A DNA stretch of 64,000 nt. It comes from an uncultured Candidatus Saccharibacteria bacterium (GTDB lineage: Bacteria; Patescibacteriota; Saccharimonadia; Saccharimonadales; 2-12-FULL-41-12). The position numbers were made by a program, and so were the translations under genes. The stretch is taken from positions 140,137 through 204,136 of the forward strand of contig CAYOLI010000001.1 of assembly GCA_964404795.1 (NCBI GenBank). The letters are read 5' to 3'. Positions 7,040 through 63,003 of this stretch are shown here, in pieces; position 1 is the stretch's first letter; each line of letters starts with the position of its first letter. Under the pieces are notes generated by a model. It was not told the origin of the DNA. It was given only the letters and a program-made list of their open reading frames with translations, and did not search any database.

Positions 7040-8509
7040 TTATATCCAGTAGGATTGTAATATCAGGAGTTGCATAAAAGAAAGATTAGCGGTAGTTATA
7101 CCAATAATTAATATACTAGCTCTGAGGTTATTAGTAGTTTGCAGGATAGGCCTGGCTAGACCGCTAAAAATAACGATAAAGGGCAGTAACGGTATGAAAT
7201 AACGACCCTGTACTCCATTTACAAAATGGGCACCTTTGGAAGTTGTATAAAAGAGCATGGACAGTGTTATGCCAGCAAACGATACCCCCATAAGCAATAT
7301 GAGTAAAAGATGTAATCTTCTAGCAAAGATAATTCTCTTTTTCTCTGACATGCAATATGCAAGCAGTAGCACAAAGTACACGGACAAGGAATACCACACG
7401 GGGGGTTTAATATAGTAGGATGTGAATAGACCAAAGAAGCCCTGTGTAATAAAATTCGGGATTGCGTGCTCGCTATTTAGGTCGCTGACATAGGTATGGT
7501 AGAGTAGTTTAGCCGTGTAAGACGGGTATACTAAATTTTTGATATTGTCACTGGTGTCATTAGGATAAATTCCTACACTATTCACGGCAAGTCTGTTAGC
7601 TTGATGTACTCCGCGAGCAGAAACAGCAATATTCCAAGATGTTACAAGTAAAAAGGGTACAAGCAGGGTCAATGCTAGCCATCTAGCTCTGGAAGTCCCG
7701 CGTGCAAAGGCCTCTTTTGGTAGTAGCAATAAAATCAAGAAAAGGGGATAGTATACAATTTTACTCAGTGATACAAAAGTGACGGCACAAAAAATCAACA
7801 GTAATAGATTGACTCTATGCTTTCCGAATGTAGCGATGTAACGACGGTTGCTATAAATATAAATGTAGCAAGCGATAAATAGAATACAGAAACCCACGAT
7901 CAGTGCATCAATTGATGTAGATGCAGCTTCTTGGACGCACATTGGTAATAGTCCAATAATTGCAAAAAACCATTTTTTAGTTGGGGCAATGCGGATGGCA
8001 AGTGCTACCATCAATATAAAGCCACACAAGACCGTCATGCGAATTAAGTATAAAGTTGTTAACACTGATAGGTTTAGGATACGCGCAAGACCAATGGTTG
8101 TGGCCTGCAGTACGTATGAAATTGGTGAATATAACGCAGTATTGCTATAGCCCAATACAGATCTAGAGTCACTGTTAATGTGGATATTATTAACATCAGA
8201 TATTTTGGAATGTATATATGCTTTGTTGATTTTTTTGTTGGTAGCATTAAAATTATACATAGCATTCATCTCAATAAAGCTATTGGGAATGGCGCCACCA
8301 ACTTGTCCGTTTCCTATACTTTTTGTAAGCAATACGCCGTTTGATATCTCGTAAGCTCTTGCAGTATGAGCGATCTCATCATTAACAACCATAGGAGGTT
8401 GAGTGAATACAGATGTAAGCCCAAAGACTGTTGCCAATATTACGAATGTTATTAAAGGACTATCAGATAGAAATCGAATAATCCGCTCGCTCTTGCTCTT
8501 AATTGACAT
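7040..8509 (-). CDS. Polytopic membrane protein, DUF2142-like (candidate GT-C glycosyltransferase)
   Basis: About 12 TM segments. The first loop motif VNDEIAHTARAYEIS is the D-E-x-x-H pattern I associate with DUF2142. Start placed at ATG 8509 (MSIKSK), overlapping the upstream gene by 11 nt. Confidence 0.55.
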   Translation of the reverse strand: MSIKSKSERIIRFLSDSPLITFVILATVFGLTSVFTQPPMVVNDEIAHTARAYEISNGVLLTKSIGNGQVGGAIPNSFIEMNAMYNFNATNKKINKAYIHSKISDVNNIHINSDSRSVLGYSNTALYSPISYVLQATTIGLARILNLSVLTTLYLIRMTVLCGFILMVALAIRIAPTKKWFFAIIGLLPMCVQEAASTSIDALIVGFCILFIACYIYIYSNRRYIATFGKHRVNLLLLIFCAVTFVSLSKIVYYPLFLILLLLPKEAFARGTSRARWLALTLLVPFLLVTSWNIAVSARGVHQANRLAVNSVGIYPNDTSDNIKNLVYPSYTAKLLYHTYVSDLNSEHAIPNFITQGFFGLFTSYYIKPPVWYSLSVYFVLLLAYCMSEKKRIIFARRLHLLLILLMGVSFAGITLSMLFYTTSKGAHFVNGVQGRYFIPLLPFIVIFSGLARPILQTTNNLRASILIIGITTANLSFMQLLILQSYWI

Positions 8510-9690
8510 AGGTGTATAATATAGGTCTTTCACCAGACATAGTTGCAACTGATTCAGAGACTAATGCAAACTGTGTAGCATACGCACCAGGTGTAGAGGG
8601 TGCTTTATACCAGAATTCGAAAGTAGCATTCTGGCCTGGATTTACCATATCTTCAATCTGTGCAGTTGGACGAAAACAACTTATCCAGCTTGTGTCGCAA
8701 AAAAGACTTGGGGTAGACGCCGCAACGGCTAACCTCACTGGGCCTACTCCAGACCTCATCCAAGCAACATTTCCGTTATTTCTAAATTTAATCTGAATGA
8801 AAACCTTGTTACCAGCTAACATCTGGTTGTGACTTGTTTCTTGTGTCATCGAAGCATCAGTAAAGGTTCTGACTTGACTTGCGTTGGTAGCGTAGATTCG
8901 AGGTGTTACACGAGTATAAATTATTGGTTCCTCACCGTCCATTCCAGAAACTGTCTCTGCAAGTATTGCAAATCTCGTAGCATAGTCACCAGGTGTAGAG
9001 GGTGCTTTATACCAGAATTCGAAAGTTGCATATCCTCCAAGGCCTACCTCAGCTTCTTTCATATTGGCTGGCCTAGCGCAGTTTATCCAACTTAGATCAC
9101 AAAAGTAGCTATTGTTTGCCGTTGCAAGTCTAACTGCACCGGAGCCATAGTTCTTCCACACAACGTTACCGTTATTACGGAATTTCATTTGAATGAATAC
9201 CTTATCATTAGGCGACAGAGTATTAGCATTGATCTGTTGACCCATCGAAGCATCAGTAAATACTCGGACCTGACTATTGTTATTGGCATATAACGGGGGG
9301 TTAACGTAAGTATAAAGCATGGGTGCATCACCAATAATATTTGTAATCATCTCTGAGACTAATGCAAACTGTGTAGCATACGCACCAGGTGTAGAGGGTG
9401 CTTTATACCAGAATTCGAAAGTTGCATATCCTCCGGGTCCAACAGAACTTTCCTTCATATCTACAACACGCGAGCAGCTTATCCACCCCGTGTCACAGAA
9501 GGGGTTGCCTGCTGATGTAGAAAGTCTTACAGCTCCCAAGCCATAGTTTGTCCAGATGGCATCTCCGTTATTTCTAAATTTAATCTGAATGAAAACCTTG
9601 TTACCAGCTAACATCTGGTTGTGACTTGTTTCTTGTGTCATCGAAGCATCAGTAAAGGTTCTGACTTGACTTGCGTTGGTAGCGTAGAAG
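8499..9690 (-). repeat. Three in-frame tandem coding repeats (396-bp period) with perfect DNA blocks
   Basis: 8772..8896 is identical to 9564..9688 (125 bp). 8557..8624 is identical to 9355..9422 (68 bp). 8987..9038 is identical to 9383..9434 (52 bp). Confidence 0.9.
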
Positions 9691-43161: not shown

Positions 43162-46100
43162 ATGAATAAACAAATAAAGAAGGATAGTCAAGGACAAGCC
43201 AATAACCTTGTTGGCATTATCTATAAAAGATGTATGTTCTTGATAAAAAAGACGTTTACTTTTTTGGACTTTTTTGCAGGGATTGTTTGGGTACAAGCTG
43301 AAAAAGCATTAGGTTTCTTCTGGAAATACGTAAAAATACTAACGGCAAGGGCTAGGGTTTTTGCACTTATCTTGGCAAGGTTGACATTGCTGTATACAAA
43401 GAGAATATACAAAGCATTGCACCATCATTTGGCATATAGACCACACGTGCACTTGTCTAATAAATATCAGAAATATAACGCTTGGCATGAGTGGGATAAA
43501 CACAAGATAGTACATCTCGCAGTGTTTGTCTGCTATGCGATAATTGTTGGTGCCTTCGTAATTAGTTCTTATCAAAGAGTGTTAGCGCTTTCCGATTTGT
43601 TTAATAACTGGAATTTTAGCTCTCCTGGGGATTACACACTAGATTCAGGGGTAGAGACGAGTGGCAGTAGTGTTCGACTAAAGGCCCAAAACTATATCAC
43701 CGATGGTGATACGAAGGCGCTATATCATCTAGACGAGACGTCGGGTACAAATGCCAGCGATAGTTCGGGCAGCGGCAACGATGCAACCGTTAATGGTGGA
43801 TCGTTTGCGGCCGGCAATCTCAACAATGGTCTAGCGCTCAATGGGTCTAGTGGATTGGCTGTTGCTCCCGACACACCATCCCTCTCGTTGTCTCAGACAA
43901 ATACTTTAGAAGCATGGACTAAGTTTTCGTCTAATTTTAATGCTGGAAGCCACGAACATAAACAAGGAGTAATAGATAAAGGATCTTATAAGCTATATTA
44001 CGATCAAGAAACAGGTAAAGTGACTTACGAATTAGCAAATAACTCAGCTAATACATGGACTCAGCAGGCAGGTAACGACATAAAAGGTAGCTGGGATTTA
44101 AACGGCAAGCCGATAATTAATGACCAAGTAATAATTGCTGGCAATTTGTATGTTGGTCTTGGCAATGCAGTGGGTGACGCTGAGGTCTGGAAGTGGGATG
44201 GCAGTACCTGGACAATGGTAGGAGGAGATGGAAAAAATAGTAGTTGGCCTGACCAGACGTATGAAAATGTAAAAAGCTTGGCTGCTAATGGCAATACTTT
44301 ATATGCTGGGCTGGGTTCGACCGTTGGTGATGGGGAAGTTTGGAGCTGTAATACTGCAACCGGATGTACGACCTGGACCAAGATTGGTGGCGATGGTATT
44401 AACAGTAGTTGGCCCGTGAATGTGTACGAAGAGGTTAGCTCGATGGTTACTGTAGGAGGCAATTTATATGCCGGACTTGGCCTGAGCGCCGGTGATGGGG
44501 AAGTTTGGAGCTGTAATACTGCAACCGGATGCACGACCTGGACCAAGATTGGTGGCGATGGCATTAACAGCGGTTGGGGCTCAGAAATTGAAGCGGTATA
44601 TTCTCTGACAACAGATGGTTCAAAGATATATGCTGGACTGGGTAATACGACTGGTGATGCAGATCTGTATAGCTGGAACGGAAGCGCCTGGACCAAGATT
44701 GGTGGCGATGGCATTAACAGCGGTTGGGCTGCTAGCACATACGAATATGTGTTTAGTTTGCGCTATTTTGGTGGTAACTTATACGCTGGTTTAGGCGCAA
44801 CAGCTGGCGATGCCGAGGTCTGGCGCTGGAATGGCAGTACCTGGACTCAGATTGGCGGGGATACGCTAAATTCGTCTTGGGATGCAACCTCCTATGAAAT
44901 GGTTTATAGCTTGACCGATGATGGCACTAATTTATACGCAGGACTAGGTAATACGGCTGGCGATAACGAGGTATGGCGATGGAACGGCAGTGCCTGGACC
45001 AAGATCGGCGGTGATGGAGTGAATGGTAGTTTTACAAACACTCACACTATTGTGCAAACGTTAGTGTATGGAAATGGAAAGCTGTATGCGGGGATTAGTG
45101 CAGCGTCTAATAATGCCGAAGTTTGGAGTTGGGACGGCAGTACTTGGACTCGTTTTGGTGGAGGATACATTAACAAAAGTTGGGGTTACTTTAACCTTCA
45201 GGATGTTGAGACAATGACGGTCTCTGGTGATTATTTATATGCAGGTACTGGGTACACTGTGGCCGGAAATGCACAGGTTTGGAGGTTTGATGGTAACTCA
45301 TGGGAAATAGTTGGTGGACAGGGATTAAATGGTAGCTGGTCACCGAGTACTTATGAGAACGTACTGAGTATGATAAGTGTTGGGGGCAATTTGTATGTTG
45401 GTTTGGGCACAACGGTAAATGATGGGGAGGTCTGGCGCTGGGATGGAAGTTCTTGGACTCAAATTGGCGGGGATGGCTTAAATAGTGGTTGGGGCGCTAG
45501 CTATGAAGAGGTTAGCTCTTTGGCTACCTACGGGGGGTATCTTTATGCGGGGCTTGGTAACTCGGCCAATGATGCTGAGGTCTGGCGCTGGAATGGCAGT
45601 GCCTGGACCAAGATTGGTGGTGATAGCATTAATGGTGGCTGGACTACTAACTACGAGAGGGTTAGTTCCATGGCAATTTATAACGGACAACTTTATGCTG
45701 GTTTAGGTGTAACAGCTGGTGACGCCGAGGTTTGGAGTTGGAATGGTAGTACTTGGACCAAAGTAGGTGGCGATGGGGTAAATAGTAGTTGGAATCTGGT
45801 TTATGAACAAGTTGAGTCAATGATTGCGTACAATGGTAAGTTATACGCTGGACTTGGTAACAGTACCGGCGATGCCGAAGTTTGGCAATACGACGGCTCT
45901 AGCTGGTCGCAAATTGGTGGCGATGGGGTAAATAGCAGTTGGTTCGACGGACAGTTTGAGCAAGTAAAAACCATGACAGTTTATAACGGCAAGCTATACG
46001 CTGGTCTGGGCAACAGTGCTGGTGACGGCGAGGTGTGGGAGTACAGTGACGGTGCCTGGACAAAGGTTGGCGGTGGCGGGACAAACAGTAGTTGGGCGGC

Positions 46101-49100
46101 TAACGTTATAGAAACCGTACAAAGCTTTAGTGTATATAAGGGGAAGCTCTACGCAGGGCTTGGTAATACCGCGAATGCAGATGCGTCTGTTTGGTCGTAC
46201 GGCAATAATGGCTTTTTACAATCAACAACAACCTCTCAAGATACCAACTGGCATCACATTGCTGCAACTTATGATGGCATCACGATGAAGTTATATATTG
46301 ATGGTAGCTTGAATGCGCAAACGTCTGCTTCTTTATCTATGCCTGATTCGGCCGAGCCATTACTGCTGGGTTCAACTTTTGGGGCCTCAGAGGCAGGGTG
46401 GTCTCAAGGGTATTTTGAGGGCTCAATAGATGAGGTAAGGATTAGTAGTGTTGCCAGGAACGCTTTCACATCGAAACCGTACAAATCGACGGCGCAGACT
46501 GTTACGCTGAACACCCCAGTTCGCACCAGTGGAGTGTGGCATTGGGACGATCTAACTTCTTCCGAAACACTAAATGGTGGATCGATAACTTACCGTATTT
46601 CGGATAACGGGGGTACTACCTGGAAGTATTGGGATGGTAGTAGCTGGGCTACCTCGGGAAATAATACCGAAGCGAACTCAATCTCGGTAATTAGTGCACA
46701 TATTGGGTCTTTTCCCGTTACCTTTGATGGTATCAAATGGCAAGCAATTTTGAAGGGCGACGGTACGCAGCAAGTACAGTTAAATACGGTTGGACTTACC
46801 GCAACCTCGGACCTAACAGAGCCCACTACTAATGCGGCCAATATTGTTGGCTTTAAGGCATATTCTGGCTCTGCTTTAGCAAACAATGCTTGGACTAATG
46901 GTAGCTCTCCTTACTTCTCATGGGACGCAGGGGTAGATACTGACTCTGGAATTAAAGGATATTGTTTGTATCTAGGCACAGACAATACGGCCGATCCAGT
47001 TACTACCAAAGGTGTACTTGGGGTTAGTCCTGTTTCTACTGGCGGTCATTGCCAGTTTATTGTCGCACCAAGCAATATAGATACGGCAGTATCTGGATAT
47101 ATTGCTTCGCCCCTAGCTTCCTCGAACAATCCTTATTACTTAAATATTAAAGCCATCGACAATGCCGGGAACGTAGCTAGTAGTACTACGCAGTTTCAAT
47201 TTAGGTTTGACAATACACCTCCCTCGAATCCTACATACATAACAGCCCCTTCTGGGTTTATTAATACCAAAGACGTAACACTAACATGGCCAACTACTGG
47301 AGGAGACGCCCCAGCAGACGCTAATTCTGGCGTTGCAGGACTACAATATCGAATCAATGGGACTAGTTGGTATGGTGATTTACACACCGGGTTGGGTGAT
47401 ATAAATGATTTATTAACTAATGACGGCGCATACACTACAGCAGTTTCTCCTGATTATACTAATTTGAATGATGGTATTAATACGGTTTACTTTAGAACAT
47501 GGGATCAAGCGGGTAATGTAACAAGCTCTTATGTGACTGCCGCAGTTAAGCTCAATACTTCCGGAGCTCCTAGTGAGCCCCAGAATTTGATTGTTTCGCC
47601 TGTTACCAACAACACTAATGCATTTTCTTTCAGTTGGCAGGCGCCAAATACTTTCGTGGGGGACGCAAATAATATTACGTATTGCTATACGATTAATAGC
47701 TTGCCGTCAGTCAGTAACTGTACATTTACAGGTGCTGGAGTTACTTCTCTTGGATCGGGCCCTTATGCTACTCAGCCAGGCCAGAACACTTTGTATTTGG
47801 TCGCTAAAGATGAGTCGGGCAACATTAACTACGCAAGTTATGCATCAATCAATTTTACAGCTAACACCCCTTCTCCTGGCATGCCAACTAACACCGATCT
47901 TGTGGATGTTTCCATAAAGACAACTAGCAATTGGCGGTTAGCACTTACATGGGACCAGCCCTCTTACGTAGGTGCAGGTATAGCGAGCTATAAGGTGTAT
48001 AGATCGACAGATAATATTAGTTTCTCGTTTGTTGGTAGTAGTTCGAGCACAACCTACATAGATGCCGGTCTTAGCCAGCAAAGGTACTACTATCGGGTAG
48101 CTGCTTGTGATAGCACCAATAACTGTGGTGCTTATGGAACGGTGGTCAGCGGGATACCGACAGGTAAATTTACCAGCCCGGCCATTCTTGTTTCGGACCC
48201 AGTGGTATCGAATATTACCACCAAAAAAGCTACTATTAGATGGAGTACCGACAGATCAAGCGATTCAAAGATTGCTTTTGGAACATCCAGTGGGAACTAT
48301 AGCCCGTCAGAGGTATCAATATCGAATCAGACGAGTTCACATCAAATAGAGCTAACCAACTTAAGCGCTGGGACCACTTACTATTTTGTGGCTAAATGGA
48401 CTGACGAAGATGGTAACACTGGCGTTAGCCAAGAATATACCTTTAGGACTGCTCCAGCGCCTACTCTTAAGGAGATATCTGCAACACAGATTGGGCTATC
48501 AAATGCAACAATTGGCTTTACCTCGAAGGACGCTACAAAAATAGACATATTTTATGGTAAGAGCGAAGGATTTGGGGGTGTAAAAAGTATTAATACTTCG
48601 CCATATGAGTCAACCTACGCAGTTGATATTGTTGGGCTTGAAGATGGGTCGAAGTACTTTTATAAATTAGTTGCGCACGATAGCGAGAATAATACTTACG
48701 ATGGAAGCGTAGCGTCCTTTACCACTCCTGCAAGGCCACGTATTAGCGACTTGAGATTTCAGCCGATAACTGGCGAGCCAACCAGCACCCAAGAGGTTAC
48801 GTGGAACACTAATGTTCCTTCGACGTCTATGGTCACCTATGGTAAAGTTGGCTCCGTTGGTGTTGATGTCCTTGATTCAGGATCTGTTACTCAACACAAG
48901 ATAATATTAAGAAACCTAGAAGATGACAGCCAGTATTTCTTGGTGGCCCAAAGTCGAGATAGTGGCGGTAATTTGGCAATTTCAGATAGACAGGAATTCA
49001 AAACTGCCCTAGACACAAGACCACCTAAAATTAGTGACATAATAATCGAGACATCTATTAGAGGAACTGGAGCCGAGGCCAGAGGGCAAGTTGTTGTATC

Positions 49101-51512: not shown

Positions 51513-51588
51513 TGGTGGGGCAGGCAGGATTTGAACCTGCGACCAATCGGTTATGAGCCGACTGCTCTAACCCCTGAGCTACTGCCCC
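51513..51588 (-). tRNA. tRNA, anticodon CAU, Ile2(lysidine)-like
   Basis: Hand-folded cloverleaf: GGGGCAG/CTGCCCC, GCTC/GAGC, GTCGG-CTCATAA-CCGAT, GCAGG-TTCAAAT-CCTGC, with an encoded CCA. The anticodon arm and variable region resemble the B. subtilis/E. coli tRNA-Ile2 as I recall them. Confidence 0.85.
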
Positions 51589-59201: not shown

Positions 59202-59648
59202 ATGGAGTTAAAGCAACTAAAAAATATGAATGAAGCGCTTGATATTCTCGAGCAAGAATATAGTCATTACAGTGATAACATTAAGCATCGTCTTGAGTTT
59301 CTGCCTGCTAGGGAAATTGAAAAACTGACAGACGATGCGCTTATTTCGACCAAAAAATTAGCGAAAGAAGTGTTAGCACAAAATCCAAGTGGAGAGTTGG
59401 ACTTGGGTGAGCTTGGCAAGTATTTACTCGGTATAGATGAAACACGCGACAGGGTATCGTTATATCGAGATAGGGACTTTGATTACGAAGGCATGCACGA
59501 AGCATTTGCAACAGTGTTTCATGTCAATTTAAGTAAAGACAATTTTCACAGAACATCCGATGTTCTTGAGGTGCTTGACGCGCAAGAGACTATGAGTGCC
59601 ATTCATTCTGTTATTTTTCCCCAGACGGTATTACCCATAACTCAATAA
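59202..59648 (+). CDS. Hypothetical protein
   Basis: ORF preceded by a consensus promoter. No recognised motif. Confidence 0.45.
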   Translation: MELKQLKNMNEALDILEQEYSHYSDNIKHRLEFLPAREIEKLTDDALISTKKLAKEVLAQNPSGELDLGELGKYLLGIDETRDRVSLYRDRDFDYEGMHEAFATVFHVNLSKDNFHRTSDVLEVLDAQETMSAIHSVIFPQTVLPITQ

Positions 59649-59683
59649 AAAACGCCTTCTAAAGAGGCCTTTTAGTAATAACT

Positions 59684-59830
59684 TGGTAGCGGGGGCAGGA
59701 CTCGGCCACGTTCCGCGGCCCCGAAACTTCACGATTGGCAAGCCAGTTGCCATCGGAAGATTTCCTTGCGGACTGCCACCGGCAGTCCTCACCTGCGACC
59801 TTTAGTGTCGCAGAGCTGAAGTCCTTGCCC
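59684..59830 (-). ncRNA. GC-rich structured RNA partly derived from the adjacent tRNA(CAU); family unknown
   Basis: The 3' 21 nt (59684..59704) are identical to the tRNA 3' end (59872..59892) including CCA. 59791..59802 is identical to 59894..59905. An 86-nt insert of about 62% GC by hand count sits where the T-loop would be. Five hairpins and a closing helix can be drawn. G-U pairs exist only on the minus-strand reading. Confidence 0.5.
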
Positions 59831-59837
59831 TGTCATG

Positions 59838-59863
59838 AAAAAAGCCTGACAAAAATGTCAGAC
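59838..59863 (-). terminator. Rho-independent terminator after the initiator-like tRNA
   Basis: On the minus strand: GTCTGAC-ATTTTT-GTCAGGC followed by TTTTTT. Confidence 0.6.
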
Positions 59864-59871
59864 TCTTTTCA

Positions 59872-59946
59872 TGGTAGCGGGGGCAGGACTCGAACCTGCG
59901 ACCTTGTGGTTATGAGCCACACGAGCTGCCACTGCTCCACCCCGCA
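59872..59946 (-). tRNA. tRNA, anticodon CAU, initiator (fMet)-like
   Basis: (U)GCGGGGTGGAGCAG...GCTCG TGTGG-CTCATAA-CCACA AGGTC GCAGG-TTCGAGT-CCTGC CCCCGC(U)ACCA. It closely resembles E. coli tRNA-fMet, with a 1:72 U-U mismatch and A11. Only two of the three G-C pairs above the anticodon loop are present. Confidence 0.85.
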
Positions 59947-59990
59947 TCAAACCGCATAAATTATACCAAAACAGGGGTCAGATTGTCAAT

Positions 59991-60542
59991 TTAATCGTTT
60001 TTTGATTTTTTCGTATAGGGATTATCAACTTGACTAAACCCCTGTTTTTTTCTAAATTTTACTAAATCTTGCTTGAATTTATTCCTTTGTTTAGCGTTTT
60101 CGGGTCCCCTAAACGTTTCCACGAATTTTTTAAACGCCATATTGCCTTCTGCATTTTTATCGTAGCTATCTGAGGCCCTGTCTTGCAGTATATAGCCCGT
60201 TCCAGCCATAAATATGTTTCGTAATTTTCGTTCTTTAGCTAATTTTGCGCCGTCAATCTTTTTGTTGACATCTTCGATACCATAAGTACCGTACTTGTAA
60301 TAAAGTTTTTCATTTTCGGTTTGACTAAATTGGGCCTTGTTAAAGCCAGAATTTGAGCTCATTCTGCCAAGTACATATAGGGCCTCTATTAGGCGACGAC
60401 TTCGTTCCTCGACAGAAATGCTTGGTCCGGGCTCAATCCTAAAAGATTGTTGGTCAGTCAGTGCCGGTTCTAAATTAGGAGTGTTTAAATTAAATAGAGT
60501 TCCTTGGTCTGGGTTGGGCTCGAATTCTTTTTTGGATGCCAT
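59991..60542 (-). CDS. Hypothetical protein
   Basis: 183-aa ORF, Lys-rich at the C-terminus. No recognised motif. Confidence 0.45.
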   Translation of the reverse strand: MASKKEFEPNPDQGTLFNLNTPNLEPALTDQQSFRIEPGPSISVEERSRRLIEALYVLGRMSSNSGFNKAQFSQTENEKLYYKYGTYGIEDVNKKIDGAKLAKERKLRNIFMAGTGYILQDRASDSYDKNAEGNMAFKKFVETFRGPENAKQRNKFKQDLVKFRKKQGFSQVDNPYTKKSKND

Positions 60543-62926: not shown

Positions 62927-63003
62927 TGGTAGCGGCGAGTGGGGTTGAACCACTGACCTCAGGCTTATGAGTCCTGCGCTCTAACCAACTGAGCTACGCC
63001 GCC
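62927..63003 (-). tRNA. tRNA, anticodon CAU, elongator Met-like
   Basis: GGCGGCG TA GCTC AGTTGGTTA GAGC G CAGGA-CTCATAA-GCCTG AGGTC AGTGG-TTCAACC-CCACT CGCCGCT A CCA. The acceptor and D arm resemble elongator tRNA-Met of Firmicutes/E. coli. Confidence 0.85.

What the first reader, a model, noticed from the sequence alone, without database searches (positions are those of the whole stretch)
59684..59830. GC-rich 147-nt structured RNA built from pieces of the neighbouring initiator-like tRNA
Seen: 59684..59704 is identical to the last 21 nt of the tRNA at 59872..59946 (T-loop 3' part, T-stem, acceptor 3' strand, ACCA). 59791..59802 is identical to the tRNA variable-region/T-stem 5' strand. In place of one T-loop base there are 86 nt with about 62% GC (hand count) in a genome that looks about 40% GC. 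On the minus strand I can draw hairpins at 59793..59813, 59770..59788, 59755..59765, 59733..59754 and 59704..59720. A closing helix pairs GGGCA(A)GGACT (59830..59820) with AGTCCTGCCC (59702..59693). Two pairs are G-U on the minus strand but A-C on the plus strand, which supports minus-strand RNA. No tRNA 5' acceptor strand or D-arm is present, so it is not simply a second tRNA. A terminator precedes it at 59838..59863, and a short GC stem plus T6 run follows at about 59645-59670. Possibilities include a new tRNA-derived regulatory or mimic RNA (compare tRNA-like domains of Y RNAs or tmRNA), a small structured insertion element that landed in a duplicated tRNA, or the scar of an integrase-mediated event at the tRNA 3' end.
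Basis: partly seen in the sequence, partly recalled or inferred. Interest (0 to 1): 0.65.

Follow-up and report, generated by a model that had tools for sequence, protein, structure and literature searches.

The report
tRNA-linked structured RNA repeat, new family
Behind an initiator-like tRNA gene lies a partial copy of that tRNA's 3' end in which one T-loop base is replaced by a conserved, GC-rich, folded 86-nt module. It has the same layout as the unexplained "tRNA-linked repeats" of E. coli but belongs to a separate family found in Saccharibacteria relatives and Betaproteobacteria.

Summary
59684-59704 repeats the last 21 nt of tRNA-Met(CAT) 59872-59946(-), and 59791-59802 repeats its variable-region and T-stem 5' strand. 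Between them, 86 nt (61.6% GC; window 39.9%) replace U55.

It is not a one-off. About 45 homologous copies occur in Patescibacteria contigs and about 45 in Betaproteobacteria, always beside an intact same-strand tRNA (Met, Lys, Trp, Gln, Leu, Ile, Ser, Glu). Some are in tandem arrays. Flanks match the local tRNA.

The core folds as a four-way junction: 96.7% of cells pair and 30 of 39 pairs show compensatory changes. An invariant G:U fixes the strand as the window's minus strand. No Rfam family matches, no protein partner is conserved, and no phage or plasmid copy was found.

The closest known kind is the E. coli tRNA-linked repeats (TLR/RtT RNA). They share the architecture, but covariance models show no homology.

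Best reading: a new TLR-type family, probably transcribed by read-through of the tRNA terminator and 3'-processed like the tRNA. It has duplicated among tRNA loci. Its cellular role is unknown, as it is for TLRs.

The parts
59960..59989 (-). Sigma-70-type promoter of the tRNA (TTGACA, 18 nt, TATAAT with a TG extension). It is the only promoter-like site upstream of the element on this strand.
   Evidence: 12 of 12 consensus matches. No promoter-like site was found between the tRNA and the element.
59872..59946 (-). Intact tRNA-Met(CAT). It looks initiator-like: a U1xU72 mismatch and A11:U24, read from the sequence.
   Evidence: ARAGORN. Rfam tRNA 63.9 bits.
59834..59873 (-). First terminator. 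A perfect 18-bp hairpin that starts in the tRNA's CCA, with a U6 run in its 3' strand.
   Evidence: -26.4 kcal/mol, z = -8.7. One search lists the core hairpin. The same tRNA-terminator-element layout occurs in the homologues.
59819..59830 (-). 5' arm, part I (GGGCA-A-GGACUU). It pairs with the T-loop 3' part, T-stem 3' strand and start of the acceptor 3' strand (59693-59703) to form the closing helix.
   Evidence: MFE fold. The same helix appears in most of 25 type-A homologues. Arms pair better with their own tRNA-derived segment than with those of other tRNA species, p = 0.002.
59792..59814 (-). Hairpin 1. Arm part II pairs with the copied variable-region/T-stem 5' strand. The 3' strand contains the 12-nt repeat 59791-59802.
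59705..59790 (-). Conserved 86-nt insert that replaces T-loop base U55. Hairpin 2 is 59767-59791, hairpin 3 is 59723-59764 and hairpin 4 is 59704-59720. Conserved purine-rich joiners are UGA, GCAAG and GG.
   Evidence: Alignment A1, RNAalifold and pair counts. Model R1 scores 109.8 bits at 59694-59798. The Betaproteobacteria model R2 scores 21.2 bits, E = 5.5e-4, at 59695-59770.
59684..59704 (-). 21-nt direct repeat of the tRNA 3' end: T-loop C56-U60, T-stem 3' strand, acceptor 3' strand and ACCA.
   Evidence: Repeats of 20-22 nt occur in the homologues.
59645..59670 (.). Second terminator-like stem plus T-run. It is shared with the convergent ORF 59202-59648(+) and closes the 'dual terminator' layout.
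   Evidence: plus-strand terminator 59654-59668; weak on the minus strand, -8.4 kcal/mol, followed by U6.

Best explanation
The element is a tRNA-linked repeat (TLR)-type unit. It is a partial 3' copy of the adjacent initiator-like tRNA-Met gene, from the variable region to CCA. In that copy U55 of the T-loop is replaced by a conserved 86-nt three-hairpin module, and a 5' arm base-pairs with the tRNA-derived parts.

Shown here:
- The anatomy of the element.
- Membership of a family of about 90 detected copies in Patescibacteria and Betaproteobacteria.
- A core secondary structure maintained by compensatory changes on the tRNA-sense strand.
- Flanks that always match the local tRNA.
- Several copies per genome, tandem arrays, and presence or absence within one species.
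- No conserved protein neighbour.

Inferred, by analogy with E. coli TLRs and the rrn dual-terminator sRNAs:
- Its 3' end is matured by the tRNA 3'-processing machinery, because the last 21 nt equal those of the tRNA.
- It accumulates as a stable RNA of about 110-150 nt whose level follows tRNA-operon transcription.

Also inferred: new units arise by recombination or duplication through the tRNA-identical segments. This leaves an intact tRNA plus one more repeat each time, so the family behaves as a low-cost, self-duplicating passenger of tRNA loci. What the conserved core binds or does is not known.
For: Repeats and fold in the window.

Family: 4 diverged homologues came from a T-arm-anchored metagenome scan. 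82 genome loci came from a hairpin-4 pattern. R1 finds 45 Patescibacteria-type copies at 60-116 bits and Betaproteobacteria-type copies at 22-39 bits. R2, built only from Betaproteobacteria, finds the window element at E = 5.5e-4.

Structure: 96.7% of cells paired against 77.5% in shuffles and 33-44% in slid controls. 30 of 39 pairs show double changes. Covariation score 0.544 against 0.169. The Betaproteobacteria type gives 94.3% paired, with the same two covarying pairs and the same invariant G:U in hairpin 4.

Linkage to tRNA: a same-strand tRNA lies 66-82 nt upstream. The 5' repeat is about 12 nt and the 3' repeat 20-22 nt, for Met, Lys, Trp, Gln, Leu and Ile. A mirror form lies upstream of tRNA-Trp and tRNA-Ser.

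Duplication and turnover:
- Tandem arrays in L088, L095, L079, L104 and L090.
- Several loci per genome.
- Nearest-neighbour inserts sit at different tRNA species at 85-95% identity.
- Contigs with the identical 183-aa gene and the same tRNA lack the unit.
- L020 is L017 plus one unit.

Known analogue: E. coli RtT/TLR units have the same design. TLRs are defined by an 18-19-nt 3' identity to the upstream tRNA or rRNA. [quoted passage not shown]
Against: - No expression data exist for this organism. The first terminator is a very stable 18-bp hairpin and no internal promoter was found, so transcription is assumed, not shown.
- Covariation and G:T wobbles would look the same for a folded single-stranded DNA site.
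- No sequence or covariance-model homology to E. coli TLRs was found. The TLR link therefore rests on architecture alone.
- The near-invariance of hairpin 4 across two distant phyla points to a specific partner or activity that this explanation does not name.
- A different, AT-rich hairpin occupies the same T-loop position in a neighbouring unit of L087. That hints at an insertion process at this site rather than simple duplication.
Confidence: 0.62

Rival explanations
1. DNA-level mobile cassette. The unit would be a miniature non-coding integrative element. As folded single-stranded DNA, it would present a duplex copy of the tRNA gene's 3' part (arm paired with the repeats), with the conserved insert as a protein-recognition branch. 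A trans-acting recombinase would insert it at the T-loop or 3' end of tRNA genes, in the manner of integron attC sites or CTX-phage attP.
For: - The layout is tRNA 3' part, terminator, inverted arm, loop, then direct copy with insert. Single-strand hairpin integration at a point 3' of the insert would give exactly this order.
- Tandem arrays resemble cassette arrays.
- The mirror 'type B' form fits a circular permutation of the same unit.
- Inserts move between tRNA species.
- The unit is present or absent within one species.
- Another cargo occupies the same T-loop position in L087.
- The unit sits behind a strong terminator.
Against: - No integrase, transposase or reverse transcriptase is conserved near any of about 80 loci. 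Neighbours are housekeeping genes.
- No copies were found in phage, viral-contig or plasmid collections.
- Betaproteobacteria and type-B copies lack the long inverted arm and instead look like a tRNA top half with acceptor stem and CCA, which is more natural for an RNA.
- In Herbaspirillum the unit lies inside a tRNA cluster, behind a hairpin without a T-run.
- A circle of about 190 nt has no precedent.
Confidence: 0.17
2. Self-inserting RNA. The insert would be a small ribozyme-like module that reverse-splices or ligates into the exposed T-loop of tRNAs. It would then be fixed in DNA by reverse transcription and recombination. Only copies in dispensable tRNA fragments would survive.
For: - The insertion point is exact, between U54 and C56, in every Patescibacteria copy whatever the tRNA.
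- Junction purines and hairpin 4 are nearly invariant, as expected of an active core.
- The insert travels without its flanks.
Against: - No known ribozyme family matches, even at E up to 10.
- No reverse transcriptase lies nearby.
- No copy sits in an otherwise complete tRNA.
- The regular terminator-plus-arm unit is not explained.
- Nothing here tests catalysis.
Confidence: 0.06
3. Inert scar. The element would be a decaying attR-type remnant or tRNA pseudogene left by an integrase event, with a chance GC-rich filler.
For: - tRNA 3'-end repeats are classic att remnants.
- This tRNA locus is hypervariable between strains, and insert-less T-arm remnants lie downstream of the same tRNA in L016, L017 and L020.
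Against: - The insert is conserved across two phyla.
- 30 of 39 pairs carry compensatory changes and the structure is strand-specific.
- It is identical in all 14 same-species contigs that span it.
- No integrase is present, and the 'island' between the repeats would be only 188 bp.
Confidence: 0.03
4. Intron-containing, split or permuted tRNA, or a tmRNA or Y-RNA-like gene.
For: T-arm halves, an acceptor 3' strand and CCA are present. Betaproteobacteria copies even have an acceptor stem.
Against: - ARAGORN (tRNA and tmRNA) and the Rfam tRNA, tmRNA and Y-RNA models give nothing.
- There is no D-arm or anticodon arm. Where the 5' half is complete (type B), the acceptor 3' strand is missing.
- An uninterrupted copy of the same tRNA is always adjacent.
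Confidence: 0.01

Closest known systems
tRNA-linked repeats (TLRs) of E. coli, including RtT RNA (rttR; Rfam RF00391) of the tyrT operon and the TLRs of the serV-argVYZQ operon
   Same: - It lies directly downstream of a tRNA in the same orientation.
- The last 18-21 nt are identical to the 3' end of that tRNA.
- The T-stem 3' strand and acceptor strand are closed by a complementary 5' arm (E. coli GGGGAAGGAU with AUCCUUCCCC; here GGGCA-GGACU with AGUCCUGCCC).
- A structured GC-rich insert replaces part of the T-loop. In E. coli tyrT it is 67 nt between ...AAGGUUCGA and AAUCC...
- Units form tandem arrays and occur at several tRNA species, each with flanks matching its own tRNA.
- No function is established.
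Sources; PMC8144298.
   Different: - No detectable homology. Rfam RtT gives no hit in the window at E up to 10 and only 16 bits (gathering score 45) on a Betaproteobacteria copy. R1 and R2 score below 10 bits on E. coli TLRs.
- The insertion point differs: 54|56 here, 58|59 in tyrT.
- The core is a four-way junction with a near-invariant hairpin, GGCCCGCRGAAYGUGGGC. E. coli has a short CCCGAAGGG hairpin in a similar place. That resemblance is noted but has no statistical support.
- The hosts are Patescibacteria and Betaproteobacteria, not enterobacteria.
RrA/RrB/RrF sRNAs between the dual terminators of E. coli rrn operons (the TLR subfamily studied in PMC8144298)
   Same: - The unit sits between two terminators at the end of a stable-RNA operon.
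- The 3' end repeats the 3' end of the upstream stable RNA.
- Expression is proposed to be by read-through and processing.
   Different: - Those follow 5S rRNA, bind Hfq and CsrA through GGA motifs, and have experimental support.
- None of that was tested here, and the sequences are unrelated.
attL/attR tRNA-fragment repeats of integrase-borne genomic islands
   Same: A direct repeat of the tRNA 3' part beside an intact tRNA, at a strain-variable locus.
   Different: - Only 188 bp lie between the repeats, and there is no integrase.
- One repeat is interrupted by a conserved, covarying structured module.
Integron attC sites and CTX-phage attP (folded single-stranded DNA recombination sites)
   Same: A strand-specific conserved fold with little sequence conservation in most stems, arranged in tandem arrays of units.
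   Different: - No integron integrase or Xer context is present.
- The fold is a multi-way junction tied to tRNA sequence.
- The evidence cannot tell RNA from single-stranded DNA.

Membership tests
tRNA-linked repeats (TLR), as defined in PMC8144298 after Egan & Landy 1978 and Rudd 1999 | Located in a tRNA or rRNA operon, immediately downstream of the stable-RNA gene | tested here: met
   The element 59684-59830(-) starts 41 nt after tRNA-Met 59872-59946(-), on the same strand. In homologues the core lies 66-82 nt after a same-strand tRNA.
tRNA-linked repeats (TLR) | About 18-19 nt at the 3' end identical to the 3' end of the upstream tRNA or rRNA | tested here: met
   21 of 21 nt are identical. 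Homologues show 20-22 nt.
tRNA-linked repeats (TLR) | Repeated: one to five units per locus, and several loci per genome | tested here: met
   The window holds one unit. Homologous loci hold 2-4 tandem units (L088, L095, L079, L104, L090). Several MAGs and isolates carry units on 2-3 contigs. The rest of the source genome was not available.
tRNA-linked repeats (TLR) | Transcribed with the operon and processed to a discrete RNA | not testable with these tools
   No transcript data. Only the promoter, dual-terminator layout and strand of the fold are consistent with it.
Rfam RF00391 (RtT RNA) | Score at or above the gathering threshold (45 bits) against the RtT covariance model | tested here: not met
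   No RtT hit in 59500-60050 at E up to 10. A Betaproteobacteria homologue scores 16 bits, E about 1. As a positive control, E. coli tyrT units score 133-138 bits.
tRNA (RF00005) or tRNA pseudogene | Cloverleaf with acceptor stem, D-arm, anticodon arm and T-arm | tested here: not met
   ARAGORN and Rfam call only the three true tRNAs. The T-loop is interrupted and no D-arm or anticodon arm is present.
tmRNA, including the two-piece form | tRNA-like domain plus a tag reading frame | tested here: not met
   The ARAGORN tmRNA search and Rfam are both negative.
Integrase att-site remnant | Repeat bounding an island that carries, or once carried, a tyrosine or serine integrase | tested here: not met
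   Only two copies of the repeat exist in the window, 188 bp apart. Neighbouring ORFs and 10 downstream proteins of homologous loci have no integrase domain.
MITE- or REP-type dispersed repeat | Many copies at unrelated intergenic sites, with terminal inverted repeats and target-site duplication | tested here: not met
   Every copy found lies inside T-arm halves beside a tRNA. There is no second copy in the 64-kb window. Whole-genome counts were not possible.
Known self-cleaving ribozymes, riboswitches or other Rfam families | Any Rfam 15 model match | tested here: not met
   Gathering-threshold scans of the window and of 18 homologous loci return only tRNAs. E-value scans return only chance-level hits.

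The most novel reading that the evidence does not exclude
TLR-type units, including this family, may not be passive duplications. They could be a bacterial class of self-propagating elements that target the tRNA T-loop. Their conserved multi-way junction would be the active part: either a ribozyme or the folded single-strand site of an unidentified trans-acting enzyme. That would explain the exact 54|56 insertion point, movement between tRNA species, tandem arrays, cross-phylum spread and, in retrospect, the origin of the E. coli TLRs.
Probability: 0.15. Interest if true: 0.85.

Novelty: new variant of a known kind. Interest (0 to 1): 0.55.

Why it matters
tRNA-linked repeats have been known in E. 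coli since 1978 and still have no accepted function or origin. They have been treated as an enterobacterial curiosity.

This element shows the same design in two very distant groups, the tiny-genome Saccharibacteria relatives and the Betaproteobacteria. Here the core is far better conserved than in E. coli, with abundant compensatory changes and one hairpin almost identical across phyla. That argues for a selected activity of the folded strand, not mere duplication debris.

It also gives the old question new material:
- a covariance model for genome-wide surveys;
- culturable carriers (Massilia, Herbaspirillum) for genetics;
- a precise structural target for binding or catalysis assays.

On the practical side, these units are GC-rich islands next to tRNAs that annotation pipelines currently leave blank or may miscall as tRNA fragments.

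Tried and rejected
- Rfam at gathering and at E up to 10, on the window, on 18 homologous loci and on a Betaproteobacteria copy: only tRNAs and chance hits.
- ARAGORN for tRNA or tmRNA: nothing at the element.
- Phage records, viral contigs and plasmids. Phage hits cover only the tRNA. Viral contigs gave none with the hairpin-4 pattern. Plasmids gave none for this unit or for a Betaproteobacteria unit.
- Search for a partner protein. Clustering of 1,226 neighbouring ORFs gave only local synteny of housekeeping genes (RNase R, HisZ, RuvB, GltX, SerS). Pfam on 10 downstream proteins of about 400 aa gave transporters, a helicase, ComEC, GlnA and the like, with no integrase, transposase or reverse transcriptase. 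The window's own neighbours are ABC transporters, a PNPOx-like protein and unknowns.
- Clean empty site in the same species. L016 and L017 lack the unit, but their downstream DNA is unrelated to the window, so exact indel ends could not be read there. L020 against L017 gave the cleaner comparison.
- Homology to E. coli TLRs. R1 and R2 with filters off score below 10 bits. The shared GGCCCG...GAA...GGGCGA motif remains an anecdote.
- Hammerhead, k-turn and T-loop-motif readings of the junction were considered by eye and dropped, because the key positions covary as ordinary pairs.
- Literature searches for a description of this family found none. One search on 'RtT' was wasted on unrelated RTT terms.
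- The Bordetella 90-bp repeat paper is unrelated.

Full report
**1. What is in the window**

On the minus strand a consensus promoter (59989-59960) precedes tRNA-Met(CAT) at 59946-59872. Read from the sequence, the tRNA has a U1xU72 mismatch and A11:U24, so 'initiator-like' is a fair description.

- Its CCA runs into a perfect 18-bp hairpin, 59873-59834, at -26.4 kcal/mol, with a U6 run in the 3' strand.
- The element follows at 59830-59684.
- Its last 21 nt equal the last 21 nt of the tRNA.
- 59802-59791 equal the tRNA's variable-region/T-stem 5' strand.
- Between these two repeats the tRNA has a single base, U55. The element has 86 nt at 61.6% GC, in a window of 39.9% GC.
- The minus strand folds into a closed multi-branch structure (-75.7 kcal/mol, z = -5.2).
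- A weak stem plus U6, shared with the convergent ORF, ends the unit.
- Surrounding genes are ordinary chromosomal ones: ABC transporters, a PNPOx-like protein and an RRM protein.

**2. It is one member of a large family**

A metagenome scan was anchored only on the two T-arm halves, with a free gap between them. It returned four diverged homologues showing obvious compensatory changes.

A degenerate pattern for hairpin 4 plus the T-loop 3' part was then used on genomes. It returned 82 loci:
- about 35 Saccharibacteria or other Patescibacteria MAGs;
- about 40 Betaproteobacteria (Massilia, Herbaspirillum, other Oxalobacteraceae and Burkholderiales);
- a few chance coding hits.

The same pattern found nothing in viral contigs. 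Phage and plasmid collections matched only the tRNA or nothing.

The window's own taxon was not established directly. Its nearest insert, at 88% identity, is in a Saccharimonadales MAG.

**3. The fold is conserved and strand-specific**

For 33 Patescibacteria-type cores:
- RNAalifold predicts a T-stem closing three hairpins. 30 of 39 pairs have double changes.
- 96.7% of cells pair, against 77.5% after shuffling and 33-44% with slid partners.
- The covariation score is 0.544 against 0.169.
- Hairpin 4 has an invariant G:U. Overall there are about 64 G:U cells against about 10 A:C cells, which fixes the strand as that of the tRNA.

For the Betaproteobacteria type:
- It has two hairpins inside the T-stem. 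94.3% of cells pair.
- The same two pairs covary, and the same G:U is invariant in hairpin 4.

The two types are linked. A model built only from Betaproteobacteria copies finds the window element at 21.2 bits, E = 5.5e-4. The Patescibacteria model finds Betaproteobacteria copies at 22-39 bits.

The window has exactly one copy, at 59694-59798, scoring 109.8 bits. It is an intact member.

**4. Relation to tRNA genes**

In the common 'type A':
- A same-strand tRNA lies 66-82 nt upstream.
- A repeat of about 12 nt (variable region, T-stem 5' strand, U54) and a repeat of 20-22 nt (G57 to CCA) flank the insert.
- These flanks match the local tRNA: Met, Lys, Trp, Gln, Leu or Ile.
- The 5' arm pairs with these tRNA-derived segments. 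The result is a five-way junction in nearly all of 25 units.
- Arms fit their own tRNA better than other tRNA species, p = 0.009 and 0.002.

In 'type B' (tRNA-Trp and tRNA-Ser):
- A copy of tRNA positions 1-54, the insert, and positions 57-65 precede a TATAAT-like box and the intact tRNA.
- L090 is a tandem array of this form.

Betaproteobacteria copies look like a tRNA top half. They have a true acceptor stem, a plain hairpin, a T-stem carrying the insert, and NCCA.

**5. Signs of duplication and turnover**

- Tandem arrays: four units at 163-nt spacing in Massilia BSC265, three in Sapientia aquatica, and two or three in several Saccharibacteria.
- Several loci per genome.
- Inserts 85-95% identical sit at different tRNA species. 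This includes a Lys/Leu pair in one MAG.
- All 14 same-species contigs spanning the site carry the identical element. Two others, with the identical 183-aa gene and the same tRNA, lack it.
- L020 equals L017 plus one unit bounded by the tRNA-end repeat.
- No integrase, transposase or reverse transcriptase is conserved nearby.

**6. Comparison with what is known**

No Rfam family matches. A chance-level RtT hit on a Betaproteobacteria copy led to the E. coli tRNA-linked repeats.

The literature defines TLRs as follows (PMC8144298):
- They sit in tRNA or rRNA operons.
- Their last 18-19 nt are identical to the 3' end of the upstream stable RNA.
- There are 22 copies at ten loci, with one to five per locus.
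- They have no known function. [quoted passage not shown]

Reading the tyrT and arg operons shows the same architecture as here:
- An arm, GGGGAAGGAU or GGGAGGAU, pairs with the T-stem 3' strand and acceptor strand.
- A structured insert takes the place of T-loop bases.
- The tRNA 3' end then follows.

The E. coli units nevertheless share no detectable homology with this family. The element therefore meets the definition of a TLR but is not a member of RF00391.

**7. How it most likely works**

Shown: a conserved, strand-specific fold; linkage to tRNA; duplication.

Inferred:
- Read-through transcription from the strong tRNA promoter.
- 3' maturation through the tRNA-identical end.
- A stable structured RNA whose level follows tRNA-operon activity.
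- New units arising by recombination through the tRNA-identical segments.

The main rival is a DNA-level cassette recognised as folded single-stranded DNA. That model predicts the observed order: tRNA end, terminator, inverted arm, direct copy. It is also favoured by the strong first terminator and by a second kind of cargo at the same T-loop position in L087. It lacks any candidate enzyme, however, and it fits the Betaproteobacteria and type-B forms less well.

A scar or pseudogene and an intron are excluded by the covariation and by the missing tRNA halves.

**8. Verdict**

The element is a new, cross-phylum family of a known but unexplained kind, the tRNA-linked repeats. The function of the core is unresolved.

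Noticed in passing
L087:4790-5018 (minus strand), compared with L046: Between tRNA-Gln and the GC-rich unit, L087 carries an extra unit of about 160 nt with the same layout: terminator, inverted arm, partial tRNA 3' copy. Its T-loop holds a different cargo, an AT-rich perfect hairpin of about 54 nt (CTAAATAGTCTCAAGCCCGAATTATATTCGGCGCTTAGATTATTTAG). T-loops of these partial tRNA copies therefore accept more than one kind of insert.
   Followed up: partly
L016:2376-2470, L017:1620-1720, L020:2430-2540: Insert-less remnants, consisting of a terminator followed by ..GGTTCGAGTCCTGC.. with decayed acceptor sequence, lie downstream of the same tRNA-Met in strains or species that lack the unit, or lie beyond it. 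The DNA after them differs between strains and encodes proteins with type IV pilin-like N-termini. This tRNA locus is hypervariable.
   Followed up: partly
L107:467-598 and L108:360-480, 590-720, 1010-1140 (E. coli K-12): E. coli TLR/RtT units can be read as T-arms whose loop is replaced by a structured insert. In tyrT the arrangement is AAGGUUCGA, then 67 nt, then AAUCCUUCCCCCACCACCA. The arg-operon TLRs share the core CGUUGC..GCAACG-G-CCCGAAGGG-CGA but fall below the Rfam RtT gathering score.
   Followed up: partly
L100:1949-2240 (minus strand): A truncated copy of the insert, ending inside hairpin 4 at ..GGAACGTG, is fused directly to the start of a second complete insert (TGAGACATGC..). 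This suggests recombination or nested insertion between copies.
   Followed up: no
window 51513-51588, 59872-59946, 62927-63003: Three different tRNA(CAT) genes lie on the minus strand within 11.5 kb. Only the middle, initiator-like one carries a linked unit. The other two have no tRNA-fragment repeat downstream.
   Followed up: yes
window 44135-46177: A coding region of higher GC (about 47%) is built from 9 or more diverged repeats of about 150 nt (50 aa) with a recurring ..GDAEVW.W.G..W.. motif. It looks like a beta-propeller-type repeat protein.
   Followed up: no
window 8503-9688: Three tandem repeats of about 396 nt. Two copies of the 129-nt reference segment are 99% identical. They probably lie within a large repeat-containing gene.
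   Followed up: no
L091:5143-6107 (Herbaspirillum sp. AP02): The tRNA cluster reads Ala-Glu-Glu-unit-Ala-Glu-unit. The unit is embedded in a duplicated tRNA block and is preceded by a hairpin without a T-run, so co-transcription with the tRNAs is likely there.
   Followed up: no
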